DNA of 64,000 bases from a virus: positions 1 through 64,000 of the IMG/VR virus record IMGVR_UViG_3300034418_012737; one strand, given 5' to 3'. Within the stretch, counting starts at the first letter, position 1, and each line of letters begins with the position of its first letter. Position numbers and translations under genes: made by a program. Shown here piece after piece: positions 51,660-62,288 of the stretch. The notes beneath the pieces were generated by a model. That model made no database searches and was not told where the DNA came from. It saw only the letters and a program-made list of their open reading frames with translations.

Positions 51660-52183
51660 TCAATTGTTTCTTTTGCGGATGTGTGTAATATACCAATTCC
51701 TCCTTTGGATTCCCACTGTTCAATGTTATCTTTTCTATCATCAATCAAGATATGGGAAGGAGCAGCATACTTTTGCTTGTTATGGGAATAAGCCAAGTTA
51801 AGTTTAACTCCCAACTTATGATTTCTAACCCACAAACGCTTACCTAAACGTGAGTGTTCTGCTCGGGAAGGGGAAGAAAGCAACTCAACATAGAAGTTTT
51901 CAGTAATAAACTTAAATAGTTCCTTACCATCTTCCATCCAATCCATTCCTACCCAAAAACCTACACCTCTAGCATCAATAAGTTCCCAAAACTCATCTTT
52001 ACCATTTTTTTCAGTAAACTTTTTGGGACCCCAAGGATGAATTTCGCTAAACTGCTTATCAAAGTCAGTAAGCACTCCATCCATGTCACAATAAATCCTC
52101 GGCCGAAACTCTTTCGATACCATAAGTGCTTCCTCTTCGGATAGCTCCAAACTGTTCATTGTTGTAAATTGGTTTTGCTTCAT
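51632..52183 (-). CDS. HAD-superfamily 5'(3')-deoxyribonucleotidase; true start probably near 52123
   Basis: IYCDMDGVLTDF, LSSP, K..W, LIDD...N...W...GG.GI. Confidence 0.88.
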   Translation of the reverse strand: MKQNQFTTMNSLELSEEEALMVSKEFRPRIYCDMDGVLTDFDKQFSEIHPWGPKKFTEKNGKDEFWELIDARGVGFWVGMDWMEDGKELFKFITENFYVELLSSPSRAEHSRLGKRLWVRNHKLGVKLNLAYSHNKQKYAAPSHILIDDRKDNIEQWESKGGIGILHTSAKETIECLRKKVTL

Positions 52184-52471
52184 TTATATCTTCACTAAAA
52201 TATGGGTACCCTCTCCTCAACCCAGCAAACACCCTTGCATACTCATCTATTACGTAAAAGGGGCGTTTGCGTTCTTCTGCTATTTTAAGGTCGATCTCGT
52301 TCTCCCGGCGCCTCAGGTCGATGTACATAATTCTGGGATTTACGTTGGATTTCTTCTGCTATGAACCTTATTTGGAGGAGGTGGTTATATACTTCCTCTG
52401 GGATATCTTGGTAATGTCTAGCGTCTAGCTCATTAAGGTGGTTCAAGATATATTGCGCCTCCTTATAGATT

Positions 52472-52701
52472 TTATTCGTCTCCATCGAGCATCAGATTAT
52501 TGTTTTCCAAAAAATACCAGAAACGTTCGAGCCATAGGGCAATTCGTACGTCATCAATGGTGTCGTCAAATTTAGCACCTTCAGCACGAGCATCTGCTAC
52601 TTTCATAATACCAAAGTCAGCTAGGTCACGTGCTTTGTCTTCATCACCACGTGCTAGCGCTTCACGTGCATTTGCGTAACAATCAGAGACTGTCATTTTC
52701 A
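52472..52701 (-). CDS. Hypothetical early protein (start approximate)
   Basis: MKMTVSDCY...LWLERFWYFLENNNL; downstream of promoter J. Confidence 0.5.
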
Positions 52702-52825
52702 TTTTTATGTTTTGTTTTACGGGTATACTTACTTTTGTCAGTATGTACCTTATTAGAGGGTTGGCGGAAATATTTACCCTCAGGTACACTAGCGTTTATG
52801 TTTTTCCGCTTTTTCATCATGGGTA

Positions 52826-52878
52826 AAGATACGAAAGTTCCCGGCAAAAACCACATTTTCATATGACTTTAATATTAC
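52826..52878 (-). promoter_or_regulatory. Box promoter J (distal half-site degenerate)
   Basis: aagatacgaa at 52826; atgac at 52863; attac at 52874. Confidence 0.75.
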
Positions 52879-53486
52879 CAAGAATTGATAGCAGTTTTAT
52901 ATTTAATATCCTTAATAGTGGAAAGTTTCATATTGCTATATTCTAAAGCCCACTTAAAAAATATTTCACAAAACCATGAGGGGTCTATACCTGGGGGATT
53001 TCCGTTTTGGTAAAAGTGGAGATTTTTTTCTATACTACTTAAATAATCCTCAATTTTAAAAGAAAAACAATTAGTAGCAAGCCCATTACTAGGTCCCCAA
53101 CCATAAACTATAGGTTTACCTTCTTTTCCTTTTTCCATTAAATTGTTAAAGTCTTTTTCCTCAAATACTACATCATAATTTAAATGATGGATATAATCAA
53201 ACCCCAAAGATTGACATAACTTAAAACCCTTGCCAATTTGGTGGAGGTGGGCATAGCCATAATCTGGGGTACTTTTTCCATTAAAATATATTACTCTATT
53301 TGTTTTGGGGTTTTCCTTTATGTATAAAGTATAATCTACTTGAGATTGAATTTCAGTAGGCAGAGGAAAATTACCCACAAATACTATAGGTAATCCTTTA
53401 TCTTGTAAAAAAGCTAAAAGATCAAGAGCTACTTTTATCTTATTTGGTGTGTTTAAATGAGAAGTAATTAATATACAAGTGTTCAT
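52875..53486 (-). CDS. Putative glycosyltransferase-associated protein
   Basis: IHHLNYD motif; AT-rich; paired with the next ORF. Confidence 0.45.
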   Translation of the reverse strand: MNTCILITSHLNTPNKIKVALDLLAFLQDKGLPIVFVGNFPLPTEIQSQVDYTLYIKENPKTNRVIYFNGKSTPDYGYAHLHQIGKGFKLCQSLGFDYIHHLNYDVVFEEKDFNNLMEKGKEGKPIVYGWGPSNGLATNCFSFKIEDYLSSIEKNLHFYQNGNPPGIDPSWFCEIFFKWALEYSNMKLSTIKDIKYKTAINSW

Positions 53487-54277
53487 ACATACTGTTTTAA
53501 TAGATCAATATTTTTACATCCATGATATACCATTATGTCTGAAGTATTCAAAATTCTAACATCAGTCATGCCTGGGTTGTTGTACATATTCTCATATTTT
53601 TCGCCAAATTCCATTAAATGAAAATAATACTTATTATGGGTTACTACATTAGCATGACATTGACCCAAATTTAATTTTCCATTTACCCTACACAAAATTG
53701 AATTATATACTATTTCATCTCCTGCAGGGTAATTAGTGAAGTTTAATTTTTCAGTATAAGGAGAAGTTAAACACAATTTAGCCCATTTCTCAATAAAAGA
53801 TTTACTTTCCTGCCCAAAGAGAACTACATTAGTTTGAGTATAGGTAAAATCATAATTAGTTCCTAAAACATAATTTATTTTATTTACTAATCCTTTTTTC
53901 CAATTAGGTTCTAAATTACACGTATGATATGATGCTAGGGGTGTGATTAAAGTAGAAGCCTTACTTAAAAGTAAATCAGGATTAAATCTTTTTCCTATAA
54001 TATGGTCGGTATCAAGGTAAAGCATACTTTCATCTTGAAAATCCTTTAAAGCTTGTAAAAGTATAGAGGGCTTAATTCTTCTAGCATGTTCAGGTTCACT
54101 TAATATCTCTAAAGGAATATATTTGTAAGTAACTTGGGGATGAGGGCTAGATACCTCAAAATCTACAGTGTAAAGGGTAAACTGGTGTTTCTCAGTAAAC
54201 CCTAATTTTTCTGCGGATTTAATTAAATACTCATAAGGAGCATATGCTTGTTTATTACAAAAGGATATTATTCTCAT
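53483..54277 (-). CDS. Putative GT-A glycosyltransferase (nucleotide-diphospho-sugar transferase-like)
   Basis: KP.ILLQAL...LYLDTD (DxD), GDE..YN, YHG.K. Confidence 0.65.
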   Translation of the reverse strand: MRIISFCNKQAYAPYEYLIKSAEKLGFTEKHQFTLYTVDFEVSSPHPQVTYKYIPLEILSEPEHARRIKPSILLQALKDFQDESMLYLDTDHIIGKRFNPDLLLSKASTLITPLASYHTCNLEPNWKKGLVNKINYVLGTNYDFTYTQTNVVLFGQESKSFIEKWAKLCLTSPYTEKLNFTNYPAGDEIVYNSILCRVNGKLNLGQCHANVVTHNKYYFHLMEFGEKYENMYNNPGMTDVRILNTSDIMVYHGCKNIDLLKQYV

Positions 54278-54486
54278 GTTAAAGTCATTACTTCGGAATG
54301 ATGGTAAAATTTACCCCTCTTAAAATCTGCTTTTTTAATCCTACGGCCTTTACCAGCATCAGCCCTTTGTACAAAGTAATAAGGTCCTTCTCTATCATCA
54401 TAGGCTACTTGGTTAATTTCAGCAGTAACAATATAATCATTACCCTTACGTGAGTCTGGGACTCGAACTTGTTCAAACATTTTCAT
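54274..54486 (-). CDS. Hypothetical protein
   Basis: ORF track. Confidence 0.5.
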   Translation of the reverse strand: MKMFEQVRVPDSRKGNDYIVTAEINQVAYDDREGPYYFVQRADAGKGRRIKKADFKRGKFYHHSEVMTLT

Positions 54487-54505
54487 TTTATAACTTATTT
54501 AGTTG

Positions 54506-54585
54506 TACCTAAGGTGGGACTCGAACCCACAAGCCGAAGCACTAGTTCCTAAGACTAGCGTGTATACCAATTCCACCACTTAGGC
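54506..54585 (-). tRNA. tRNA-Leu(UAG)
   Basis: CTAGT-CT-TAG-GA-ACTAG; GGTTCGAGTCC. Confidence 0.95.
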
Positions 54586-54594
54586 ATATGACCC

Positions 54595-54819
54595 TTAATG
54601 GGTCATCTTAGCCTCAGGCTTAACAGCTGCAAGACTATCAAGTAGATCACTTACAGTTGTAATTGAGTCTGTATTAAAAGGTATTTCTACACCTGTAGTA
54701 TCCCATTGAAGGCTATCAGTTGCACAGCTGTCAGTCATGGGTGTGGTACAGCACTCGTCTTCGGTTCCTCCACAAGAGGTAAGAGCAACAATTGCTCCAA
54801 TAAAAAATAGTTGTTTCAT
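54595..54819 (-). CDS. Small lipoprotein
   Basis: MKQLFFIGAIVALTS-C. Confidence 0.75.
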   Translation of the reverse strand: MKQLFFIGAIVALTSCGGTEDECCTTPMTDSCATDSLQWDTTGVEIPFNTDSITTVSDLLDSLAAVKPEAKMTH

Positions 54820-54835
54820 CGTTTTATGTTTAAAA

Positions 54836-55039
54836 TTATTGAACAGGAGAAAGAGGAGTACCAGTTGTTAAATCATTTCCTGGGGTTCCGTCCATGTCTA
54901 AGGAATCCTTAGGGGGGATTGGGGGAGTAGAGTCTGCAGGGACAGCATTAGGAGGGGGTGCAGGGACTGTGTGGGGGTTATCAAATCCACAAGATGCAAG
55001 TAGGATTGTAAATCCTATAGTAAAAAATAGTTGTTTCAT
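54836..55039 (-). CDS. Small Pro-rich lipoprotein; start at 55039
   Basis: MKQLFFTIGFTILLAS-C; same N-terminus as its neighbour. Confidence 0.75.
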   Translation of the reverse strand: MKQLFFTIGFTILLASCGFDNPHTVPAPPPNAVPADSTPPIPPKDSLDMDGTPGNDLTTGTPLSPVQ

Positions 55040-55241
55040 CGTTTTGTATTTTGGTTTGTTAAAATGTACCATGGTGGTACGTCTGATTTCTTTTTTGGTA
55101 GTTTTCTAAATGTTTGTACTTCGGGATAATTATACCCTTCATGTAGTAATCTAACTGTTTTATCTTTGGTATTAATGTTAAGAACCTCTCCTTGGACCTC
55201 CTCGCCAAATAGAAAGAAATTTATAATATCTCCTACTTTCA

Positions 55242-55457
55242 TTACCAATCCCTTTGACATTGCTTACGGGGGACCCTAGCATATCTAGTACGAATCCCAT
55301 TGTTATAGGAATTACCTCTTCCACTATACCTCATATGAGAAAATTTTCCATCATTAGTAAAAACAGCAGATTGGGTTCTGCTATTGTAATAATAAGGAGA
55401 ACAACTTGACAATCCAAGGGCAATAAATAACCCCAATAAGTAACTTAAATATTTCAT
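55242..55457 (-). CDS. Small lipoprotein
   Basis: MKYLSYLLGLFIALGLSS-C. Confidence 0.7.
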   Translation of the reverse strand: MKYLSYLLGLFIALGLSSCSPYYYNSRTQSAVFTNDGKFSHMRYSGRGNSYNNGIRTRYARVPRKQCQRDW

Positions 55458-55474
55458 TTTTCAATAAATATTAG

Positions 55475-55548
55475 TAGGAGATACTGGATTCGAACCAGTG
55501 ACCTTTCGGATGTAAACCGAATGCTCTAACCAACTGAGCTAATCTCCC
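55475..55548 (-). tRNA. tRNA-Val(UAC)
   Basis: TTCGG-TT-TAC-AT-CCGAA. Confidence 0.95.
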
Positions 55549-55698
55549 AATTGCCCCAGCCAGCGCTGAGGACTTGTCCGTCTGGTATCTCGTCGGACCA
55601 CTGAGATTCTATATTCTAGGCTATAGAAAACCTAGTCTCCCATATTAGACTAAGGGTTATTATGGGGTGATGTCTGTTCCCCTCTCTGACCCCAAATG

Positions 55699-55771
55699 TA
55701 GGCCAACTGGGAATCGAACCCAGAGACATCGACTACTAGAATACTGCCATATCCGTTCGCACTTTTACCCC
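55699..55771 (-). pseudogene. Degenerate tRNA-like element (73 nt)
   Basis: Perfect T arm CTGGG-TTCGATT-CCCAG at canonical positions 49-65 and G18G19 present; acceptor stem imperfect; no paired D or anticodon stem. Confidence 0.6.
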
Positions 55772-55794
55772 TTTCCCCCTGGCAGGGGAGAAAT

Positions 55795-55871
55795 TGGAGC
55801 CACTAGCAGGATTCGAACCCGCGACCTGCTGATTACAAATCAGCTGCTCTAGCCAACTGAGCTATAGTGGC
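55795..55871 (-). tRNA. tRNA-Thr(UGU), CCA encoded
   Basis: GCTGA-TT-TGT-AA-TCAGC. Confidence 0.96.
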
Positions 55872-55891
55872 TGCATTCGCCTCACACGCTG

Positions 55892-55964
55892 TGATCCCGG
55901 TCGGGCTTGAACCGACGACCCTTCCCTTAAAAGGGGAATGCTCTACCAGCTGAGCTACGGGATC
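55892..55964 (-). tRNA. tRNA-Lys(UUU)
   Basis: TTCCC-CT-TTT-AA-GGGAA. Confidence 0.95.
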
Positions 55965-55967
55965 AAT

Positions 55968-56316
55968 AAATGAAGGAATGGGTAAAGAGTTATTCAGGCT
56001 CTTAAGCGCGACAAGCAGGCGGTTGTATTGGTAAATCATAATGGCACAAGAGGAGTGTTAAACCCGCATCCCATTAATTATTTCACTTCATGGCTGCTAA
56101 CCCCAATTGAAGTTCACAATATCGCTTAGTAGAATTTAGTTCCACTATCACACAACCACACACTAAATAAGCCCACCTCAACGGTTCTCACCTCTCACTA
56201 GCGCTTGCTAGTGAGTGAAGCTACTTATCAGCATGTGTACTTTATCCCCCTAAACAAGGGACACATTCAGTCATACCCCCCCGTGCGTGATCAGCGCGGT
56301 GGGGTTTCCTTCATTT
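55968..56316 (-). ncRNA. Candidate ~350-nt structured ncRNA of unknown class
   Basis: 11-bp terminal helix, multiple internal helices and a candidate pseudoknot; fills the gap between tRNA-Ile and tRNA-Lys. Strand inferred from the flanking tRNAs and G-U-compatible pairing. Confidence 0.7.
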
Positions 56317-56317
56317 G

Positions 56318-56391
56318 TAGGAACGGCAGGAATCGAACCTGCGACCTCCAAGATATAAGCTTGATGCTCTAACCAATTGAGCTACGTTCCC
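56318..56391 (-). tRNA. tRNA-Ile(UAU)
   Basis: TCAAG-CT-TAT-AT-CTTGG; canonical D and T arms. Confidence 0.9.
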
Positions 56392-56465
56392 ATATTGGTG
56401 CGTCATTTTATTACGCAGTGACGTCATCAGCGAATGCTATTTATTTCAGTATGTAAAGAACCTAG

Positions 56466-56539
56466 TACTCCCTACAGGAGTCGAACCTGTGACCCACAGC
56501 TTAGAAGGCTGTTGCTCTATCCAGCTGAGCTAAGGGAGC
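56466..56539 (-). tRNA. tRNA-Arg(UCU)
   Basis: ACAGC-CT-TCT-AA-GCTGT. Confidence 0.95.
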
Positions 56540-56547
56540 ATATTTTG

Positions 56548-56632
56548 TAGCGCTGGGGGGACTCGAACCCCCACGGACCTACGGTCCAACAGATTTTAAG
56601 TCTGTCGTGTCTACCACTTCCACCACAGCGCC
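56548..56632 (-). tRNA. tRNA-Leu(UAA)
   Basis: ACAGA-CT-TAA-AA-TCTGT; long variable arm. Confidence 0.95.
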
Positions 56633-56759
56633 ATATTTTTATTTTTTAATGTACTTAAAGTAATTGTAAATATTGATAGGAATACAAACCCCAACCACAA
56701 CTACATAAATAATAATCCAAACCTGATCTGTCATTTCTCTGCCTTAACTTTACCCCATG

Positions 56760-56812
56760 AATATACGAACCGAATTTTCAAATCCCACATTTTGGGATGA
56801 CTTTAAGATGAC
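56760..56812 (-). promoter_or_regulatory. Box promoter K (upstream of the tRNA/ncRNA cluster)
   Basis: aatatacgaa at 56760; atgac at 56797 and 56808. Confidence 0.85.
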
Positions 56813-57117
56813 CTTCTTCTTCCTTTTTTAGGCTCAATACCCAACTGCCTTTCCAATTCACGCAACTCACGGTTCCGCTTGACTTTTTCCTTACCAACAG
56901 CAACCTGCTGTTTGCTAGGGACTCGGTCCTCCATCTCACCACGGAACTCCCTCATGAACTCCTCGCAGTCACGGCGGTCCATTTTTCCGCCATAACGTAC
57001 TGCCTCTTTATAATGCCTAGCAACAGCTTCAGCATTTCCAGTAATCATAGCATAGGCTAGTTCAGCCATTCTACCATGGTAGTTCCGCTTACGGCGGCGA
57101 TTGTTGTGATCACGCAT
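56803..57117 (-). CDS. Basic hypothetical protein
   Basis: Arg-rich; ends inside box K. Confidence 0.55.
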   Translation of the reverse strand: MRDHNNRRRKRNYHGRMAELAYAMITGNAEAVARHYKEAVRYGGKMDRRDCEEFMREFRGEMEDRVPSKQQVAVGKEKVKRNRELRELERQLGIEPKKGRRRSS

Positions 57118-57538
57118 TTTTCAGTTCTTTAATATGTTTACACTCTCTAGTTTTCGATCTCCATACTCCTGGGCAGTTACAACTAAATGTAATTTTTCCA
57201 GTGGGTAAAGTCACCTTACGTGCCTCATAGGTAATATCAGGATTACTCTTAGAAGTAAACTCCATAACTACCATATTTGGCTCTTTTAGCTTAACCTCAG
57301 GACGTTCCCATTTAATGTCACTCAATTTGGTTTCAGGATGTACCTCTGTCCAAGTGGGCATAATGTATTTTTTACCATCCATCACTATAAGTGAGGGGGG
57401 CATCCAATCATGTTCATGCTCATATGTTAAGCGTTGTACATTCACAAACTTGTGTCCTTTAGGTTTATACTTAAATTGTGAAGAATCTTGTACTACCTCT
57501 CGGTATTTACCATCTTCCCAAATTTGAAAAATCGCCAT
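57110..57538 (-). CDS. SWIM zinc-finger protein
   Basis: C-terminal CNC...CKH. Confidence 0.75.
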   Translation of the reverse strand: MAIFQIWEDGKYREVVQDSSQFKYKPKGHKFVNVQRLTYEHEHDWMPPSLIVMDGKKYIMPTWTEVHPETKLSDIKWERPEVKLKEPNMVVMEFTSKSNPDITYEARKVTLPTGKITFSCNCPGVWRSKTRECKHIKELKNA

Positions 57539-57760
57539 TGCTTAAACTTATTCCATAAATATAAGAATAAATTTTTAGGCTTCCCCGGTTTTGCTATGAC
57601 GATTTTATGACTGACTTCTTTATCTTCCTTTTCTAATTGGTCTTCTAAAGTAACCATCATACACATCCCATTAAGCATCATGGGGTAATAAGCCGCTACA
57701 AAGGCTAGATCTTCATCAGACATAGCCTCCATAGCCTGCTTAGCTGTCACTATTTGGGGG

Positions 57761-57940
57761 TCAACGCTTACCACGCTTACCACTGTAGTAATCTTCCAAG
57801 TCCTCTTCATCAGGAGGAAGGTAACCTGGTTTTTTGGGTTTTTTCTTCTTGCGCTCCTTATAAGCGGGAGACTCATGTTCCATAAAACGATCCCATTTTT
57901 GGAACGCATCTAACCTTTGGTGTGGGCTATTTTTGCTCAT
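57761..57940 (-). CDS. Small protein (59 aa, not in ORF track)
   Basis: MSKNSPHQRLDAFQKWDRF...YYSGKRGKR*; ATGA-coupled to the upstream gene. Confidence 0.5.
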   Translation of the reverse strand: MSKNSPHQRLDAFQKWDRFMEHESPAYKERKKKKPKKPGYLPPDEEDLEDYYSGKRGKR

Positions 57941-58077
57941 CGTCCTTGACCTTTATAGGCTTTTTTATAGTTTTTAGAATTTTTACTTTTGCTGGTTTTT
58001 GTTTTAGCGTGAACACCAGGGCGGCTCACTTTGTTAATGCTAGGGGCAAAGTCTAATGCTCCAGTTTTTTTAGCCAT
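57937..58077 (-). CDS. Small basic protein (46 aa, not in ORF track)
   Basis: MAKKTGA...RPGVHAKTKTSKSKNSKNYKKAYKGQGR*. Confidence 0.65.
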   Translation of the reverse strand: MAKKTGALDFAPSINKVSRPGVHAKTKTSKSKNSKNYKKAYKGQGR

Positions 58078-58396
58078 TTTTTAATTTTAAATAGTTTATC
58101 GCTTCAGTTATTTTAATACAATCTTCGTATTCTTCTTCACGCTCATAATGAGCTAAGTTTGTTTCTAAGATATCAATAAATTCATCGGTTTCCATTGATA
58201 ATGTATAAATAGCTCCTTCTTCCTCTACTTCTACTTCAAAAACAGGAATTTGTTTTTTCTTAGTGTCTAAGTTATTTAATACTTTTTCTACAATTCCTTT
58301 AGCAAGCATAAAATCTTTAGTTTTAGCCATATTAAGGAATTCTTCATACGTTCCTACCTTTATGTGTTTCACGTACGGCATATCAAAATAGATCAA
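58070..58396 (-). CDS. Hypothetical protein with a C-terminal UVR-like motif
   Basis: YEREEEYEDCIKI. Confidence 0.6.
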   Translation of the reverse strand: MIYFDMPYVKHIKVGTYEEFLNMAKTKDFMLAKGIVEKVLNNLDTKKKQIPVFEVEVEEEGAIYTLSMETDEFIDILETNLAHYEREEEYEDCIKITEAINYLKLKNG

Positions 58397-58524
58397 GGTA
58401 ATCTCCTTTTATTTGTTTTGACTTGAATTTAAGCATCTTTTCGTCATTCTCCAAACTTTTTGTCGCAAGCTTTTCAAGATGTTTACGTTTTTGTCCATCG
58501 TAATCGTCTACTAATTTTTGATGC

Positions 58525-59232
58525 TTACGCTTTTTCATACTTAAAGTATTTTATAGTAAAATTACTAAGTGGTATTTCTGAATAGGGCATATCTTGTGTG
58601 ACATGGTTGTTTATTACAACATTCATTTTAGTATTATTTACCTGTTTCATTACAACTGGGTCACTTACTACACGGACTAATCTGTCATTGTAATAAAACT
58701 TTAATGAGTCTAAGCTCCAATTTAATTTGTACTTTAAGAAGTGTTTTGTGGGATCTTTAAAGCCCATAAAATGACTTTTAGGTCCCCACATTTTATTTTT
58801 ACCCCCTTCAGAGTAGTGCACATTTGTATCTATATGCCTACAAGCCCAAGGTTTGTTCCAATTAAACCTATGATAATTTGGTTTTTTATGAGAATAACCT
58901 TCAAATATATCAATTTCAGGGGGCCAACTGTCCCAACTCCACATCCAAAAAGCAGGCCATAAGTTCTTACCATATGGTAATTTAGCTTTTATTTCAAATA
59001 TGCCAGGACCAAATTCAGTAGCACATGATACCAAACCTACACCTACTTTAGGTCTAATTCCTAATTCTTTAAATTCCTTAGGATTATATTGGGTTTTTAA
59101 ATTTAAGTAGTTTTTTAATGTAATTTCAACAGCACTAGGATCATACCAACAATAAGGCTTATCCTTGTGTACCTGTCCCCACCTTTCTTGGGTTAACCAT
59201 TTATATCCTGACCATTCTATTATTTTACTCAT
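58525..59232 (-). CDS. Glycoside hydrolase family 16
   Basis: WPAFWM and the catalytic EIDIFE motif. Confidence 0.88.
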   Translation of the reverse strand: MSKIIEWSGYKWLTQERWGQVHKDKPYCWYDPSAVEITLKNYLNLKTQYNPKEFKELGIRPKVGVGLVSCATEFGPGIFEIKAKLPYGKNLWPAFWMWSWDSWPPEIDIFEGYSHKKPNYHRFNWNKPWACRHIDTNVHYSEGGKNKMWGPKSHFMGFKDPTKHFLKYKLNWSLDSLKFYYNDRLVRVVSDPVVMKQVNNTKMNVVINNHVTQDMPYSEIPLSNFTIKYFKYEKA

Positions 59233-59855
59233 ATCCTTGATATCAAGTCTAGTTCATCTTTATCTTCTAAACCTAGTTCTTTTAAGCGTTGGAGGTGGTA
59301 ATCATCAATTTCCCAATTTACTTGACCTTCATTAACTGGTTTGTATTCCTCCATTGTTTGGATCTGTTTGTCACTAAATATGTCCCCAACTGTTAAAAAG
59401 TAACAATTATAACAAAGGAGTTCTACGTTATCTAATTTATAGTTTTTTTTATTATCGTCTTTAAAGTTCATTATTAATGGAACTTTGTAATCTAATACCC
59501 TGCGTTCATTAAATGAGCAATTTGAACAACAATCCTCTAAATAACCCTCTCCTATCATTCTCTCACGAATTTTAGCAGCAGAAAAATGAGAACTATCAAC
59601 TCTACCTTCTATAATGTCTAATACAGCAGGTTGTTTTACACTACCATTTAAAAACTTAGGTATACCTTTACCTGCTTGATTTTTATGTTGTTCAAATAGG
59701 TCTGGGTAGCCTTCTTCAGTGGCCTCATAGTTTTTAGCCCATTTTTTGTAGTGAATGTAGGAAACACCTAAGTAACGAGCAGCTGCACGATTAGACATAG
59801 TCTTATTCATAGCTGCTTGTATCTGTTGTTTACTTAGGGGTTTTGCCTTGGGCAT
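59229..59855 (-). CDS. HTH plus degenerate HNH/zinc-binding protein
   Basis: SNRAAARYLGVSY HTH; CSNC...DDNKKN..LDN..LLCYNC. Confidence 0.7.
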   Translation of the reverse strand: MPKAKPLSKQQIQAAMNKTMSNRAAARYLGVSYIHYKKWAKNYEATEEGYPDLFEQHKNQAGKGIPKFLNGSVKQPAVLDIIEGRVDSSHFSAAKIRERMIGEGYLEDCCSNCSFNERRVLDYKVPLIMNFKDDNKKNYKLDNVELLCYNCYFLTVGDIFSDKQIQTMEEYKPVNEGQVNWEIDDYHLQRLKELGLEDKDELDLISRI

Positions 59856-60258
59856 TTTTATCTATTTTTATTTTTAGGTCTACTAAGTATTCCCACAATT
59901 CTTCTTTAGTATTAAACATATGTTCAACACCCTCATCATCTAAAAATGGTACTACTCGTTTATTATCGTCAAATCTTGTGTATACATAAAACAATATTGC
60001 TTCAGCAGCAACAGGTTCAAAGCAAAAATGAACTAGGCTTTCTATAACTTGAAAGTAAATATCATCAATTGTTGATATATCTATTTTAAATTCGTCGTAT
60101 AATTTGTGTTGACGTTGCCAAGCTTCTTCAAATAAATCTATTATACGACTAAACTCGTTTTTTATTTTAGTTTCTGCATCCTCTTTATCACTAGTAAAGT
60201 GAATAGTAGTCCCTAAAATAGATTCAAGTATTTCCTTTATTTCTCTTTTCTGCCCCAT
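59830..60258 (-). CDS. Hypothetical protein
   Basis: ORF track. Confidence 0.55.
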   Translation of the reverse strand: MGQKREIKEILESILGTTIHFTSDKEDAETKIKNEFSRIIDLFEEAWQRQHKLYDEFKIDISTIDDIYFQVIESLVHFCFEPVAAEAILFYVYTRFDDNKRVVPFLDDEGVEHMFNTKEELWEYLVDLKIKIDKNAQGKTPK

Positions 60259-60571
60259 TAACCTTTTGTTTTAACCTAACCAATTCAGCACACTTATCAT
60301 AATCTTCTTGTTTTTCGTAAAACTTAATAACTCCTTCAATAGCAGCTTTAAAATTACGTCTATAAATAGTTACCGAACATTCTAAGTTAGGTATATAAAT
60401 TATCTTAGCTGTGGTAGAACTAGATTCTAGTGCTTCCTCTATCCCACTTACAACTTCATCAAATAATAGCTTGTGGAAATCCTCAGATTCAGTTAGTATA
60501 TCTAAATCTTCTTTATCATCATAAAGTATTTCCACAGCAAGGATTTCACGTTTTTTTATTTCCTTATCCAT
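60224..60571 (-). CDS. Hypothetical protein with a C-terminal UVR-like motif
   Basis: YEKQEDYDKCAELVRLK; ATATTTAT-N4-ATG. Confidence 0.6.
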   Translation of the reverse strand: MDKEIKKREILAVEILYDDKEDLDILTESEDFHKLLFDEVVSGIEEALESSSTTAKIIYIPNLECSVTIYRRNFKAAIEGVIKFYEKQEDYDKCAELVRLKQKVNGAEKRNKGNT

Positions 60572-60582
60572 GATTATAAATA

Positions 60583-61494
60583 TTACAAATAAACTAACTC
60601 ATTTTGATACTCTTGTAAGGAATTAACTGTAATTTTTAAGTTACCCAATTCAAAAGTACCTAATTGATTGTTATCTTTAATTATATCATTTAATTGTTGA
60701 ATATAAGTGTAATCTTCTTGGGTAAAATTATTTCCATCTACCTCAACAACAATATCTTCTCCCTCATTAAACCATATACCTAATGTATTTTTAAGTTGGG
60801 TGGTGAAATTATTTAAGATTAGTTTTTTCTTATACACTACATTATAGTGTGATTTTCTAAAACCCCACTTTTTAATAAAGTTAATATTAGATTCTTGTTC
60901 TACACTTTGATAGTTACCTACTCTAGAAGTTTTACTTACAAAATGGTATACTTGAGCAGGGGAAACTACTTTTTTAAACCCTCCTATTTTATACCTTAGA
61001 TGTAAATCATCATCTTCACAAAACATTTTAAATGTATCACCATCTAATTTTATATAATCTTCTTTTAAACACCCAAAAAATATTTGAGAGCCCCCTTCAG
61101 TTGTATTTTCAGATACAGGATAATCTAAAAACTTTTGGTGATTATAGGATTTTAAATCGGTTCCACAGTCTAAAATTTCTTTCCCAGGATAAGTGTCTAA
61201 GTATATAGGGGGTTCTACCCTTGTGTAAGATACAATAGTATTTTTTTGAATAGCTTTATCCATTAGTTCTACAAACCCAGGTTTAAGAACCATATCATTA
61301 TGGAGAAGGATAATTTTATCTCCCTTAGCACGAGCTACAGCATTATTATAATTTTCACTTAATGTAACTTGATTATTTAGTTCTAAAATTATTTCTACTT
61401 CATTTTTATTAGGGTAAATTTCCCTAATATTATTTAGCAAGTACTTAGTATATTCAGAGTTTGTTTTATTAGTAGGTATAACAAGGGAAATCAT
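60583..61494 (-). CDS. Glycosyltransferase family 2
   Basis: ISLVIP, YNNAV..AKGD.IILLHNDM, EDDD...R, VYHF.S. Confidence 0.85.
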   Translation of the reverse strand: MISLVIPTNKTNSEYTKYLLNNIREIYPNKNEVEIILELNNQVTLSENYNNAVARAKGDKIILLHNDMVLKPGFVELMDKAIQKNTIVSYTRVEPPIYLDTYPGKEILDCGTDLKSYNHQKFLDYPVSENTTEGGSQIFFGCLKEDYIKLDGDTFKMFCEDDDLHLRYKIGGFKKVVSPAQVYHFVSKTSRVGNYQSVEQESNINFIKKWGFRKSHYNVVYKKKLILNNFTTQLKNTLGIWFNEGEDIVVEVDGNNFTQEDYTYIQQLNDIIKDNNQLGTFELGNLKITVNSLQEYQNELVYL

Positions 61495-62288
61495 ATGTAA
61501 TTTTCTTTAAATTTACTCCAAAAATCAGGCACAACATTTGTATAAGCTAATGTTGTGGACCCTAAGTGGAAAATAATTCCTTTATTAAGGAAATCAAAGG
61601 ATTTATAATTATTTATAAAATCTTGATCAGTATTATATAAATAAGGAACTTGACAATTAAAATCTTTTGGTAAAACCGTTAATTCTTCACCAAATAACTC
61701 TTGTATGGTTAAATTAATAGCAGTTTGGTCCATAGCATCTAATCTTATCCCTCCCTGTTTTCCTATACCTTCTACGTGACAATTTATATCTTTTTCTTGG
61801 TAATAAAACTCTTTATAAAATTTTATTTTGTCTTGGAGGAGAGTTAAATGTTTTGGTTTTAAAGTAACAAATCCTGCATTAAAATAAGTTTTTATATAAG
61901 GTACTACTTCTGGGAAGTAGGGAACCCACTGGTTTAGGTGGTAATTAGCTACGCTATTTCCTCCTTGGTCTGGGATAACTCCAACTTCAACATTGTGGTT
62001 TTCTAATACCTCTATAAAATTATAAGCATCCCATCTGATTATAGTATCACCATCAACAAAAGTAAGACGTTCATAATCTCCATAAGAAGGAACTTCAACC
62101 CACCTGTCAAAACACATAGCGGCATAATCATTTTCAACATTTTTATAAGATTTATGTCCTGTTAAAATGATTAAATCTATATTATATTTTTTACAATAAA
62201 ATTTCCAAGTTTCTAAACAAATCTCATAGTTAGGGTGACCAAATAATCCATTGTATCCTGGGATTATTATGGCATTTTTGCTTTTCAT
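61491..62288 (-). CDS. Glycosyltransferase, GT8/GT34-like
   Basis: FVDGD, YFNAGF, DQTAIN, FN...FH. Confidence 0.8.
   Translation of the reverse strand: MKSKNAIIIPGYNGLFGHPNYEICLETWKFYCKKYNIDLIILTGHKSYKNVENDYAAMCFDRWVEVPSYGDYERLTFVDGDTIIRWDAYNFIEVLENHNVEVGVIPDQGGNSVANYHLNQWVPYFPEVVPYIKTYFNAGFVTLKPKHLTLLQDKIKFYKEFYYQEKDINCHVEGIGKQGGIRLDAMDQTAINLTIQELFGEELTVLPKDFNCQVPYLYNTDQDFINNYKSFDFLNKGIIFHLGSTTLAYTNVVPDFWSKFKENYI

What the first reader, a model, noticed from the sequence alone, without database searches (positions are those of the whole stretch)
55968..56316. A ~350-nt multi-helix, pseudoknotted ncRNA candidate between tRNA-Ile and tRNA-Lys
Seen: the inter-tRNA gap is closed by a perfect 11-bp helix, AAATGAAGGAA (55968-78) with TTCCTTCATTT (56306-16), within 1-3 nt of the flanking tRNAs, so tRNA processing would release it. 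Internal pairings on the minus strand: CCCCACCG...CGGGGGG; ATGTGT...ACACAT enclosing TCCCTT/AGGGGG; long-range GAUAAGUAG (56221-29) with CUGCUUGUC (56010-18); perfect 9-bp CTCACTAGC/GCTAGTGAG (56194-56215); GCTTA/TAAGC with ATTTAGT/ACTAAAT; ACTTCA/TGAAGT; TAATGG/CCATTA; AAGAG/CTCTT. The loop sequence GUGGUUGUGU (56150-59) can form 10 consecutive pairs with AUACAACCGC (56019-28), a candidate long-range interaction or pseudoknot. The G-U pairs work only on the minus strand. I see no RNase P (GAGGAAAGUCC) or tmRNA end signatures, and it is shorter than typical GOLLD/ROOL RNAs, which are known to sit beside phage tRNAs. Inference: possibly an undescribed large phage ncRNA or ribozyme class, transcribed from box promoter K.
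Basis: partly seen in the sequence, partly recalled or inferred. Interest (0 to 1): 0.85.

Follow-up and report, generated by a model that had tools for sequence, protein, structure and literature searches.

The report
Large manA-like RNA in phage tRNA operon
The 352-base gap between two tRNA genes of this uncultured aquatic phage encodes a real, conserved, intricately folded RNA that is in no RNA catalogue, shares its front module with the phage "manA" RNA (recently reported to build RNA-only cages), and has no known function.

Summary
Confirmed: window 55965-56316 (minus strand) is a structured non-coding RNA gene, flush between tRNA-Ile(UAU) and tRNA-Lys(UUU).

- **Homologues:** pattern scans found 48 homologous stretches in viral and metagenome contigs, 29 of them distinct full-length versions.
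- **Structure:** an 86-pair, 10-helix structure is 99.4% canonical, against 43-52% when partners are slid. Twelve pairs show compensatory double changes.
- **Conservation:** the RNA stays 85-99% identical where flanking genes drop to about 78-80% identity or become unalignable.
- **Expression:** metatranscriptome contigs from four studies cover it.
- **Known families:** no Rfam family reaches threshold. RNase P, tmRNA, GOLLD, ROOL and group I introns are excluded.
several were wrong. Its "pseudoknot" is neither supported nor excluded.

New here: the 5' module (hairpin, G-run, UGACUGAAU, hairpin, UAAAGU) matches the manA motif (RF01745). A model built only from this RNA picks the manA locus, in register, out of three whole cyanophage genomes.

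It fails manA membership (13.6 against 55.2 bits) and is almost twice as long.

A 2026 preprint shows that manA RNAs form RNA-only 8-, 10- and 60-mer cages, so self-assembly is the leading but untested mechanism.

Earlier agents of this scan found the same RNA on other DNA.

The parts
55965..56316 (-). The whole structured RNA (352 nt), from the base after tRNA-Ile to the base before tRNA-Lys.
   Evidence: Conserved in 48 stretches and 29 distinct full-length versions. Structure statistics. RNA-library contigs.
56306..56316 (-). P1, 5' strand (AAAUGAAGGAA) of the closing helix.
   Evidence: Pairs with 55968-55978. A-U to G-C covariation in 10 of 29 sequences. Extended to 16-17 bp in most relatives.
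55968..55978 (-). P1, 3' strand (UUCCUUCAUUU).
   Evidence: An RNA-library contig of X16 ends exactly at 55968.
56275..56305 (-). P2 hairpin (ACCCC-CCGCGC / loop CUGAUCAC / GCACGG-GGGGU). The loop holds the invariant palindrome UGAUCA.
   Evidence: 100% paired, with only C-to-U (U-G) changes. The inner hairpin aligns to manA P1. The manA of P-TIM40 has the same CUGAUCA loop.
56239..56274 (-). manA-like core: AUG-ACU-GAAUG, the P3 hairpin (UGUCCCU...GGGGAUA), then A-AGU. It contains the invariant UGACUGAAU.
   Evidence: P3 covaries at 58:74. Aligned with high posterior to manA positions 21-65. Model R2 finds manA loci in register.
56157..56237 (-). P4 domain: a long stem (CACAUGCUGAUAAGUAGC / GUGGGCUUAUUUAGUGUGUG) enclosing P5 (56194-56215) and a GNRA-loop hairpin (56183-56192, GGU-GAGA-ACC).
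   Evidence: P4 has 2 covarying pairs and P5 has 4. The GNRA hairpin carries GAAA, GAGA, GGAA or GUAA loops, with a U-G to U-A closing change, and is absent from 10 of 29 versions.
56006..56153 (-). P6 domain: long-range helix GUGUGAU (56147-56153) with GUCGCGC (56006-56012). It encloses P7 (56128-56146), P8/P8a (56078-56119), P9 (56039-56076) and the conserved strand J9/6 (56013-56038).
   Evidence: P6 changes A-U to G-C in 8 sequences. P9 covaries at 247:279. P8a is invariant. It holds a 44-nt stretch (CGAUAUUGUG...GAAGUGAAA) invariant in the first five homologues; only one column of it varies among all 29.
55985..56003 (-). P10 hairpin AAGAG-CCUGAAUAA-CUCUU.
   Evidence: Two covarying pairs: G-C to A-U in 8 sequences and A-U to G-C in 12.
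55979..55984 (-). C-rich tail UACCCA after the last hairpin. It is the positional counterpart of the 3' pseudoknot strand (CCUCCC) of manA.
   Evidence: Order of elements compared with the manA consensus. Pairing not tested, because the columns hardly vary.
56317..56391 (-). tRNA-Ile(UAU), immediately upstream.
   Evidence: ARAGORN and Rfam.
55891..55964 (-). tRNA-Lys(UUU), immediately downstream. It follows the RNA within 1-6 nt in all 29 versions.
56641..56670 (-). Promoter-like site (TTTACA-18-AAAAAT) ahead of the first tRNA of the operon.
   Evidence: Consensus scan only; matches are not enriched over shuffles.
55631..55654 (-). First terminator-like hairpin downstream on the minus strand, after tRNA-Thr.
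   Evidence: Consensus scan only.

Best explanation
It is the gene of a stable, trans-acting, highly structured RNA of about 350 nt that belongs to the phage's tRNA operon.

Shown:
- The RNA fold is under selection. It has a closing helix P1, a 5' hairpin P2, a manA-like core (UGACUGAAU, P3, UAAAGU), a variable P4/P5 domain with an optional GNRA hairpin, a large near-invariant P6 domain and a terminal hairpin P10.
- The element always sits flush against tRNA-Lys.
- RNA libraries contain it.

Inferred, processing: it is co-transcribed with tRNA-Leu, Arg, Ile, Lys and Thr. RNase P cutting at the 5' end of tRNA-Lys would make its 3' end. 3' maturation of the upstream tRNA (RNase Z, RNase E or exonucleases) would make its 5' end. 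P1 would protect both ends.

Inferred, ancestry: it is an enlarged relative of the manA motif RNA of marine phages. It has the same order of elements and a shared 5' module, but a multi-helix P6 domain stands where manA has one long hairpin.

Inferred, mode of action (weakest step): like manA, GOLLD and ROOL, it acts as an RNA-only homo-oligomeric assembly. The contacts would be conserved complementary loops and strands (UGAUCA; GUGGUU with AACC or ACCA; AGCAG with CUGCU) and the GNRA loop. What the assembly does in the infected cell is unknown.
For: Real structured RNA:
- 86 pairs are 99.4% canonical, against 43-52% when partners are slid.
- 12 pairs have changes on both sides, against 0-3 when slid.
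- A whole base pair is deleted from both strands of P5.
- The GNRA loop varies only within GNRA.

Selection:
- Identity to the window is 91-99% in the tRNA/RNA block of L007 and L039, where flanking genes are about 78-80% identical.
- In L033 the block is 85% identical and the flanks are hardly alignable.
- GC is 46% in a genome of about 30% GC.

Operon context:
- Constant order Leu-Arg-Ile/Met-[RNA]-Lys in all loci examined.
- The helix ends within 0-7 nt of the tRNAs.
- No terminator-like site lies between promoter-like 56670-56641 and 55654.

Expression:
- Contigs of four metatranscriptome studies cover it.
- In X16 a 323-nt contig lies wholly inside it (55968-56290) at depth 23, against about 2-6 over the adjacent protein-coding stretches.
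- X18 and X20 have no cover of those stretches.

manA relation:
- manA is the best non-tRNA Rfam hit. Its positions 1-65 are aligned with high posterior.
- The reverse model R2, built only from this family, gives as top hit of whole 183-233 kb cyanophage genomes the 5' end of their manA RNA, in register (17.4, 16.5 and 15.0 bits).
- The best other hit in about 1 Mb of phage DNA scores 11.5 bits.
- The aligned rows share UGACUGAAU, a loop ending in UAG, and UAAnGU.
- The manA of P-TIM40 has the same CUGAUCA loop.
- The manA of S-SSM7 is likewise followed at once by a tRNA.

Assembly precedent:
- manA RNAs form 8-, 10- and 60-mer RNA-only cages through kissing loops and a GNRA-receptor contact (bioRxiv 10.64898/2026.07.01.735769).
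- GOLLD and ROOL cages are encoded near phage tRNA islands (PMC12286853).
Against: - The full manA model scores only 13.6 bits (threshold 55.2), and its second half aligns poorly.
- In the most divergent version (L053) manA is not reported at all at E<=10.
- The R2 E-values are marginal one by one (0.07-0.3 per genome), and the three hit manA RNAs are related to each other. The shared module of about 60 nt could therefore be a reused motif rather than common descent of the whole RNA.
- The manA pseudoknot (GGGAG:CUCCC) has no proven counterpart. Here the G-run can pair with a 5' ACCCC instead.
- No assay or covariation bears on oligomerisation.
- RNA-library contigs cannot show ends, strand or level, and DNA carry-over is possible.
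- All known members are 85% or more alike, so much of the core structure rests on invariant columns.
Confidence: 0.55

Rival explanations
1. It is an independent, new class of phage RNA. The manA-like 5' module is a small reused or convergent motif. The RNA works with a protein or cellular partner, for example as a decoy or sponge for host tRNA-directed nucleases or other RNA-binding defence or translation factors, rather than as an RNA-only assembly.
For: - It fails the manA gathering score, and the 3' two-thirds do not align.
- Stretches of about 40 nt hardly vary: 44 nt are invariant in five homologues, with a single variable column among all 29. That suggests contact with a conserved partner.
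- Its constant linkage to tRNA-Lys(UUU) fits a tRNA-related role. tRNA-Lys is a known target of anticodon nucleases (general knowledge, not tested here).
Against: - The order of all elements parallels manA, not just the module.
- No conserved partner gene was seen next to it, and flanking genes are mosaic.
- No anticodon-loop mimic was identified in the RNA.
Confidence: 0.28
2. It is a cis-acting element: a processing or regulatory spacer, riboswitch-like as first proposed for manA. It would control maturation or yield of the downstream tRNA-Lys, and not function as a free RNA.
For: - manA was classed as a cis-regulatory or riboswitch candidate (PMC2864571).
- The RNA is invariably followed by tRNA-Lys, while the upstream neighbour varies (Ile, Met, or a 90-nt spacer).
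Against: - 350 nt with 10 or more helices, closed by a 11-17 bp terminal helix, is far more than tRNA processing needs.
- Other tRNAs of the same operon are 7-20 nt apart without any such element.
- RNA-library contigs lie within the element itself.
Confidence: 0.1
3. It is a divergent copy of a catalogued RNA (RNase P RNA, tmRNA, group I intron, GOLLD or ROOL), or non-functional DNA such as decayed tRNA genes or a small inverted-repeat mobile element.
For: - Size and end-to-end helix recall RNase P and tmRNA.
- The terminal inverted repeat recalls a MITE.
Against: - No such Rfam family appears even at E<=10.
- ARAGORN finds no tmRNA.
- Compensatory changes and conservation above the flanks rule out junk.
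- There is a single copy per genome at one fixed site.
- No tRNA-like match lies inside it.
Confidence: 0.04

Closest known systems
manA RNA motif (Rfam RF01745; Weinberg et al. 2010, PMC2864571)
   Same: - Found in marine and aquatic tailed phages.
- Same order of elements: hairpin with a GA(U/C)-type loop, G-run, UGACUGAAU, C/G hairpin whose loop ends in UAG, UAAnGU, then a multi-hairpin domain with a GNRA loop, further hairpin(s), and a last hairpin followed by a C-rich tail.
- Reciprocal model hits.
- One bona fide manA (S-SSM7) also abuts a tRNA gene.
   Different: - 352 nt against about 190 nt.
- An added closing helix P1.
- manA's single long hairpin is replaced by a 150-nt multi-helix P6 domain.
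- It scores 13.6 bits against the 55.2-bit threshold.
- It lies inside a tRNA operon, not in a 5' UTR.
- The manA pseudoknot is not demonstrated.
GOLLD (RF01998) and ROOL (RF03087) RNAs
   Same: - Large ornate RNAs of phages and prophages, often beside tRNA islands, of unknown function.
- GOLLD has a conserved 3' part and a variable 5' part, as this RNA does (PMC12286853).
   Different: - No sequence or structure match at E<=10.
- About half their size.
- Whether it forms cages is unknown.
Phage T4 stable RNAs rnaC (species 1) and rnaD (species 2) of the tRNA gene cluster
   Same: Small stable RNAs of unknown function encoded among phage tRNA genes and cut from the same precursor. This is general knowledge, also named by an earlier agent (e1-6040130).
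   Different: - Much shorter (about 120-140 nt).
- No sequence was on hand, so no comparison was run.
rRNA-style processing stalks and the tRNA punctuation of mitochondrial transcripts
   Same: - The mature RNA is bounded by a long helix formed from its two flanks.
- Neighbouring tRNAs, once processed, release it.
   Different: This is an analogy of processing logic only. No homology is implied, and RNase III cleavage of P1 is untested.

Membership tests
manA RNA motif (RF01745) | Scores at or above the Rfam gathering threshold (55.2 bits) with the family covariance model. | tested here: not met
   13.6 bits in the window. Not reported at E<=10 in version L053. Bona fide manA RNAs score 122-176 bits.
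manA RNA motif (RF01745) | 5' module: P1 hairpin, G-run, UGaCUGAAUAA, P3 hairpin, UAAgGu closed by AC/GU. | tested here: met
   High-posterior alignment to model positions 1-65. Model R2, built from this family, finds manA 5' ends in register in 6 of 7 loci. In 3 of 5 whole genomes that is the top hit.
manA RNA motif (RF01745) | Pseudoknot between the G-run (GGGAG) and a C-rich strand (CUCCC) after the last hairpin. | tested here: inconclusive
   UACCCA follows the last hairpin (55979-55984). However, the G-run can equally pair with ACCCC at 56301-56305. The columns are nearly invariant, so covariation gives no information.
manA RNA motif (RF01745) | Central domain with three hairpins: GUGGUG loop, GNRA loop, ACCA loop. 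| tested here: inconclusive
   A GNRA hairpin is present in 19 of 29 versions. Invariant GUGGUU and ACCA/AACC segments exist, but in junction strands. The Rfam alignment of this part is poor.
manA RNA motif (RF01745) | RNA-only closed oligomers (8-, 10- and 60-mers). | not testable with these tools
   Reported for manA in bioRxiv 10.64898/2026.07.01.735769. No RNA 3D or assembly tool was available here.
GOLLD / ROOL | Match to the family covariance model. | tested here: not met
   No hit at gathering score or at E<=10.
GOLLD / ROOL | Encoded in phage or prophage DNA beside tRNA genes. | tested here: met
   It lies inside the tRNA operon in every locus examined.
Bacterial RNase P RNA | Match to RNase P models, including the conserved P4 strands. 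| tested here: not met
   No RNase P family at E<=10. GGAAAGUCC is absent from the sequence.
tmRNA | tRNA-like domain with T arm plus a tag reading frame. | tested here: not met
   ARAGORN reports no tmRNA, standard or permuted. No tmRNA family at E<=10.
T4 rnaC/rnaD-type stable RNAs | Stable RNA excised from a phage tRNA precursor. | not tested
   The context fits. Ends and stability need Northern blots or RACE. No T4 sequence was compared.

The most novel reading that the evidence does not exclude
This is the protomer of a new, larger kind of natural RNA-only cage. It would be a 350-nt manA-type RNA made in step with the phage's own tRNAs. It would self-assemble through its invariant complementary loops, and enclose or organise tRNAs or host translation or defence factors during infection.
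Probability: 0.22. Interest if true: 0.85.

Novelty: new variant of a known kind. Interest (0 to 1): 0.66.

Why it matters
Large ornate RNAs without known function are rare, and each new class has been informative. This one is abundant in freshwater, estuarine, salt-marsh and marine data, and it appears in RNA libraries.

It links two observations. Phage "ornate" RNAs cluster with tRNA genes. The manA fold, long filed as a riboswitch candidate, is reported to be a self-assembling unit.

A double-sized relative with a conserved core, swappable peripheral helices and natural excision by tRNA enzymes offers a direct test. That test is whether RNA cages are a general phage device, and what they do. 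It would also prompt re-annotation of manA-type elements as trans-acting RNAs.

Tried and rejected
- **Rfam:** at gathering score only tRNAs were found. At E<=10 the other hits were junk: Plastid-ycf2 on the antisense of tRNAs, snoRNAs, and Tombus_3_III in L053. A 12.6-bit queA hit shares ACUGAAUGUG but has E = 8.
- **BLAST against 50,697 phage records:** only the tRNAs matched.
- **Related contigs found through neighbouring proteins:** the 264-aa neighbour gave nothing. The 235-aa neighbour gave 22 loci, of which only the closest carry the RNA. The baseplate protein gave one locus.
- **BLAST of the RNA against 18 related viral records:** only chance 14-15-mers, one of them inside a coding region.
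- **Model R1 (P6 domain) on 15 relatives, including two near-complete 250-290 kb phages, Flavobacterium phage immuto and Microcystis phage Mel-JY01:** no hit except 15.5 bits at E = 0.125. These relatives have only 1-3 tRNAs.
- **The 19-mer in 185,579 prokaryote genomes:** one chance match in a coding region.
- **A raw scan for covarying column pairs:** swamped by phylogenetic signal.
- **AAAUGAAGGAA as a dispersed repeat:** only the two arms match exactly.
rejected.
- **Small peptide or tag reading frames:** indels in P3 break any frame.
- **Depth of RNA-library contigs:** not used to rank expression. Parts without cover in X18 and X20 count only as weak hints.

Full report
**What is there**

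The window is part of a 79,954-bp IMG/VR viral contig, estimated 47% complete. It is AT-rich (about 30% GC) and nearly every sizeable ORF lies on the minus strand.

ARAGORN and Rfam place a run of minus-strand tRNA genes at 54505-56632. tRNA-Ile(UAU) is at 56317-56391 and tRNA-Lys(UUU) at 55891-55964.

The 352 nt between them (55965-56316) has these properties:
- No ORF of 30 aa or more lies wholly inside it.
- It is 46% GC, like the tRNAs.
- It folds somewhat better than shuffled sequence on either strand: z = -3.6 on the minus strand and -3.3 on the plus strand. That alone proves little.

**Homologues**

One neighbouring protein led to related viral contigs. The closest of these carry a 92%-identical element at the same place.

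Three exact-pattern scans used invariant 17-19-mers. They raised the set to 6 viral and 42 metagenome stretches, of which 29 are distinct full-length versions (alignment A4).

The same pattern gave only one chance hit in 185,579 prokaryote genomes.

Sequencing runs that hold the sequence are labelled freshwater, estuary and salt-marsh metagenomes.

In every locus examined the order is tRNA-Leu(UAA), Arg(UCU), Ile(UAU) or Met(CAU), then the RNA, then Lys(UUU). tRNA-Lys follows within 1-6 nt in all 29 versions. The upstream neighbour can be another tRNA or a 90-nt spacer.

**Structure**

RNAalifold on A4 gives 86 pairs in 10 helices. Counted against controls:

| Measure | Structure as given | 3' partners slid by 1-3 columns |
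|---|---|---|
| Cells forming a standard pair | 99.4% | 43-52% |
| Pairs with changes on both sides | 12 (71 cells) | 0-3 |

No shuffle reached the observed values.

Individual features:
- The closing helix P1 changes A-U to G-C in 10 sequences. In most relatives it is extended by flanking bases to 16-17 bp, reaching to within a base or two of both tRNAs.
- P5 shows four covarying pairs and the loss of one whole base pair from both strands.
- P10 switches AAGAG/CUCUU to AAAGG/CCUUU and to AAGGG/CCCUU.
- The long-range helix P6 (GUGUGAU/GUCGCGC) becomes GUGUGGU/GCCGCGC in 8 sequences.
- A small hairpin in the P4 domain carries GAAA, GAGA, GGAA or GUAA, always a GNRA loop. It is missing from 10 versions.
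- Thirteen G-U pairs in the window's copy would be A-C mismatches on the other strand, so the RNA is read from the minus strand.

Variation is concentrated in P3-P5 and P7. The 5' 56 nt are nearly invariant. A 44-nt stretch of the P6 domain is invariant in the first five homologues and varies at a single column among all 29.

**Selection and mosaicism**

| Locus | tRNA/RNA block vs window | Adjacent genes vs window |
|---|---|---|
| L039 | 97.6% identical | 80% |
| L007 | 91% | 78% |
| L033 | 85% | hardly alignable |
| L002 | 91.5% | 96% |

The block is more conserved than its surroundings, and it is exchanged between phages as a module.

**Expression**

Contigs assembled from metatranscriptome libraries of four studies cover the element.
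- In X16 a 323-nt contig lies wholly within it (55968-56290). One end falls on the last base of P1. Its depth is 23, against about 2-6 over the neighbouring protein-coding stretches.
- In X15 a 418-nt contig spans the RNA and the edges of both tRNAs.
- X18 and X20 cover the element but not those protein-coding stretches.

Contigs cannot show ends, strand or level, and DNA carry-over is possible. This is supportive, not conclusive.

A promoter-like site lies ahead of the first tRNA (56670-56641). The first terminator-like hairpin on that strand comes after tRNA-Thr (55654-55631). Such matches are not enriched over shuffles.

- Right: the closing helix, P2, inner P3, P5, P8a, P9 and P10.
- Rejected: GAUAAGUAG with CUGCUUGUC. 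Its first pair is absent in 26 of 29 sequences, and the strand pairs locally in covarying P4.
- Rejected: GCUUA/UAAGC with AUUUAGU/ACUAAAU, and AUGUGU/ACACAU, both of which clash with P4.
- Unresolved: the 10-bp GUGGUUGUGU:AUACAACCGC candidate. It remains 94% pairable, mainly through G-U. However, its 5' side never varies and the central U-A is broken in 15 of 29 sequences. It overlaps P4 and P6, and one C in L007 favours P6.

**What it is not**

No Rfam 15 family reaches its threshold. At E<=10 nothing resembling RNase P, tmRNA, SRP, group I or II introns, GOLLD, ROOL, HEARO or any self-cleaving ribozyme appears. ARAGORN finds no tmRNA.

**The manA lead**

The only non-tRNA hit inside the element is manA (RF01745) at 13.6 bits, far below its 55.2-bit threshold. 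I first set it aside. A note from an earlier agent of this scan on a sister genome (e1-6038303) made me test it.

The alignment is good only for model positions 1-65. There, inner P2, the G-run, UGACUGAAU, P3 and UAAAGU line up with high posterior probability. The rest is poor.

As a reverse test I built model R2 from 9 versions of this 64-nt module alone. I then searched five whole cyanophage genomes that contain bona fide manA RNAs.

| Cyanophage genome | R2 score at the 5' end of its manA RNA, in register |
|---|---|
| P-TIM40 | 17.4 bits (top hit) |
| S-SSM4 | 16.5 bits (top hit) |
| S-SSM7 | 15.0 bits (top hit) |

The only other hit in about 1 Mb of phage DNA scored 11.5 bits. With filters off, 6 of 7 manA loci are hit in register. 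The best off-target hit in the 64-kb window scores 10.7 bits.

The aligned rows share UGACUGAAU, a hairpin loop ending in UAG, and UAAnGU. The manA of P-TIM40 has the same CUGAUCA loop as P2.

Beyond the module, the order of elements runs in parallel:
1. A multi-hairpin domain with a GNRA loop.
2. Further hairpin(s).
3. A last hairpin followed by a C-rich tail.

The differences are that this RNA has a 150-nt multi-helix P6 domain where manA has one long hairpin, and an added closing helix.

In S-SSM7 the manA RNA ends at the very base where a tRNA begins. The tRNA link is therefore not unique to this element.

The E-values are marginal one by one, and the three manA RNAs are related to each other. 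In the most divergent version of this RNA the whole-model manA hit disappears. My reading is a shared module and probable common ancestry, but not membership.

**Mechanism**

The processing route rests on geometry and on textbook tRNA maturation, and it is inferred. It comprises co-transcription, RNase P making the 3' end, upstream-tRNA 3' processing making the 5' end, and P1 sealing the termini.

For mode of action the best available analogy is assembly:
- A July 2026 preprint reports that manA RNAs form RNA-only octamers, decamers and a 60-mer shell. These are held by kissing loops (L5-L7', L8-L9', L3-L8') and a GNRA loop-receptor contact, with a conserved core and varying peripheral helices.
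- GOLLD and ROOL, also encoded near phage tRNA islands, form cages too.

This RNA has the corresponding raw material:
- An invariant palindromic loop (UGAUCA).
- A GNRA hairpin that comes and goes.
- Several invariant complementary single-stranded pairs that a nested fold cannot all satisfy: GUGGUU with AACC or ACCA; AGCAG with CUGCU; UGGGGUU with AACCCCA.

The first of these recalls the manA loops GUGGUG and ACCA. By my reading of the Rfam consensus numbering these would be L5 and L7. None of this has been tested.

**Host and relatives**

The nearest cultured relatives by baseplate wedge protein are Flavobacterium phage immuto (43.5% identity) and Microcystis phage Mel-JY01 (41.9%).
- They and the more distant viral relatives lack the RNA by BLAST and by model R1.
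- They carry only 1-3 tRNAs.

The element therefore marks one sub-lineage of uncultured aquatic myoviruses. The host is unknown.

**Verdict**

This is a real, expressed, strongly selected structured RNA gene. It is a new family that is best described as an enlarged, tRNA-operon-borne relative of manA. Its function is unknown and self-assembly is the leading hypothesis. Earlier agents of this scan reached compatible conclusions on another genome. I found no paper that describes it.

Noticed in passing
L096:1501-1750 (Synechococcus phage S-SSM7, NC_015287.1 151363-151612): A bona fide manA RNA (123.6 bits) is preceded by a TTGACA...TATAAT-like promoter. It ends at the very base where a tRNA begins (Rfam tRNA match from L096:1701). 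Part of it is annotated as a hypothetical protein in one record and lies under tRNA-Gly in the sister record. This argues against a purely 5'-UTR role for manA.
   Followed up: partly
window 55549-55794 (minus strand): The 246-nt spacer between tRNA-Thr and tRNA-Val holds a T-arm-like CUGGGUUCGAUUCCCAG but no tRNA by ARAGORN. It folds no better than shuffles (z = -0.38). Other first-stage notes call it a permuted tmRNA-like or decayed tRNA (e1-6095339, e1-6095333). Relatives such as L007 and L072 carry extra tRNAs (Pro, Asn, Tyr) downstream of tRNA-Thr instead.
   Followed up: partly
window 54586-55473: An 888-nt stretch inside the tRNA cluster has raised GC (up to 45%). It carries four small minus-strand ORFs of 71-78 aa, none examined.
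   Followed up: no
window 56257-56332 (minus strand): A weak queA RNA (RF03093) match (12.6 bits, E = 8) has a single-stranded tail, ACUGAAUGUG, identical to the junction of this RNA. The CUGAAU motif also recurs in the P10 loop (CCUGAAUAA). It may be a motif shared by several marine or phage RNAs.
   Followed up: no
window 52000-62000 against L002, L007, L036, L033, L039: The tRNA/RNA block and its flanking genes have discordant identities: L039 is 97.6% in the block and 80% in the genes, while L002 is 91.5% and 96%. This indicates recombinational exchange of the tRNA module between related phages.
   Followed up: partly
L092 (Microcystis phage Mel-JY01, PP395634.1 134614-135178): A 565-nt unannotated gap is touched by a weak, non-significant hit of the P6-domain model (15.5 bits, E = 0.125).
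   Followed up: no
window 59229-59855 (minus strand): An HNH endonuclease-like ORF (phrog_14736, E = 5e-12) lies about 3 kb upstream of the tRNA operon.
   Followed up: no
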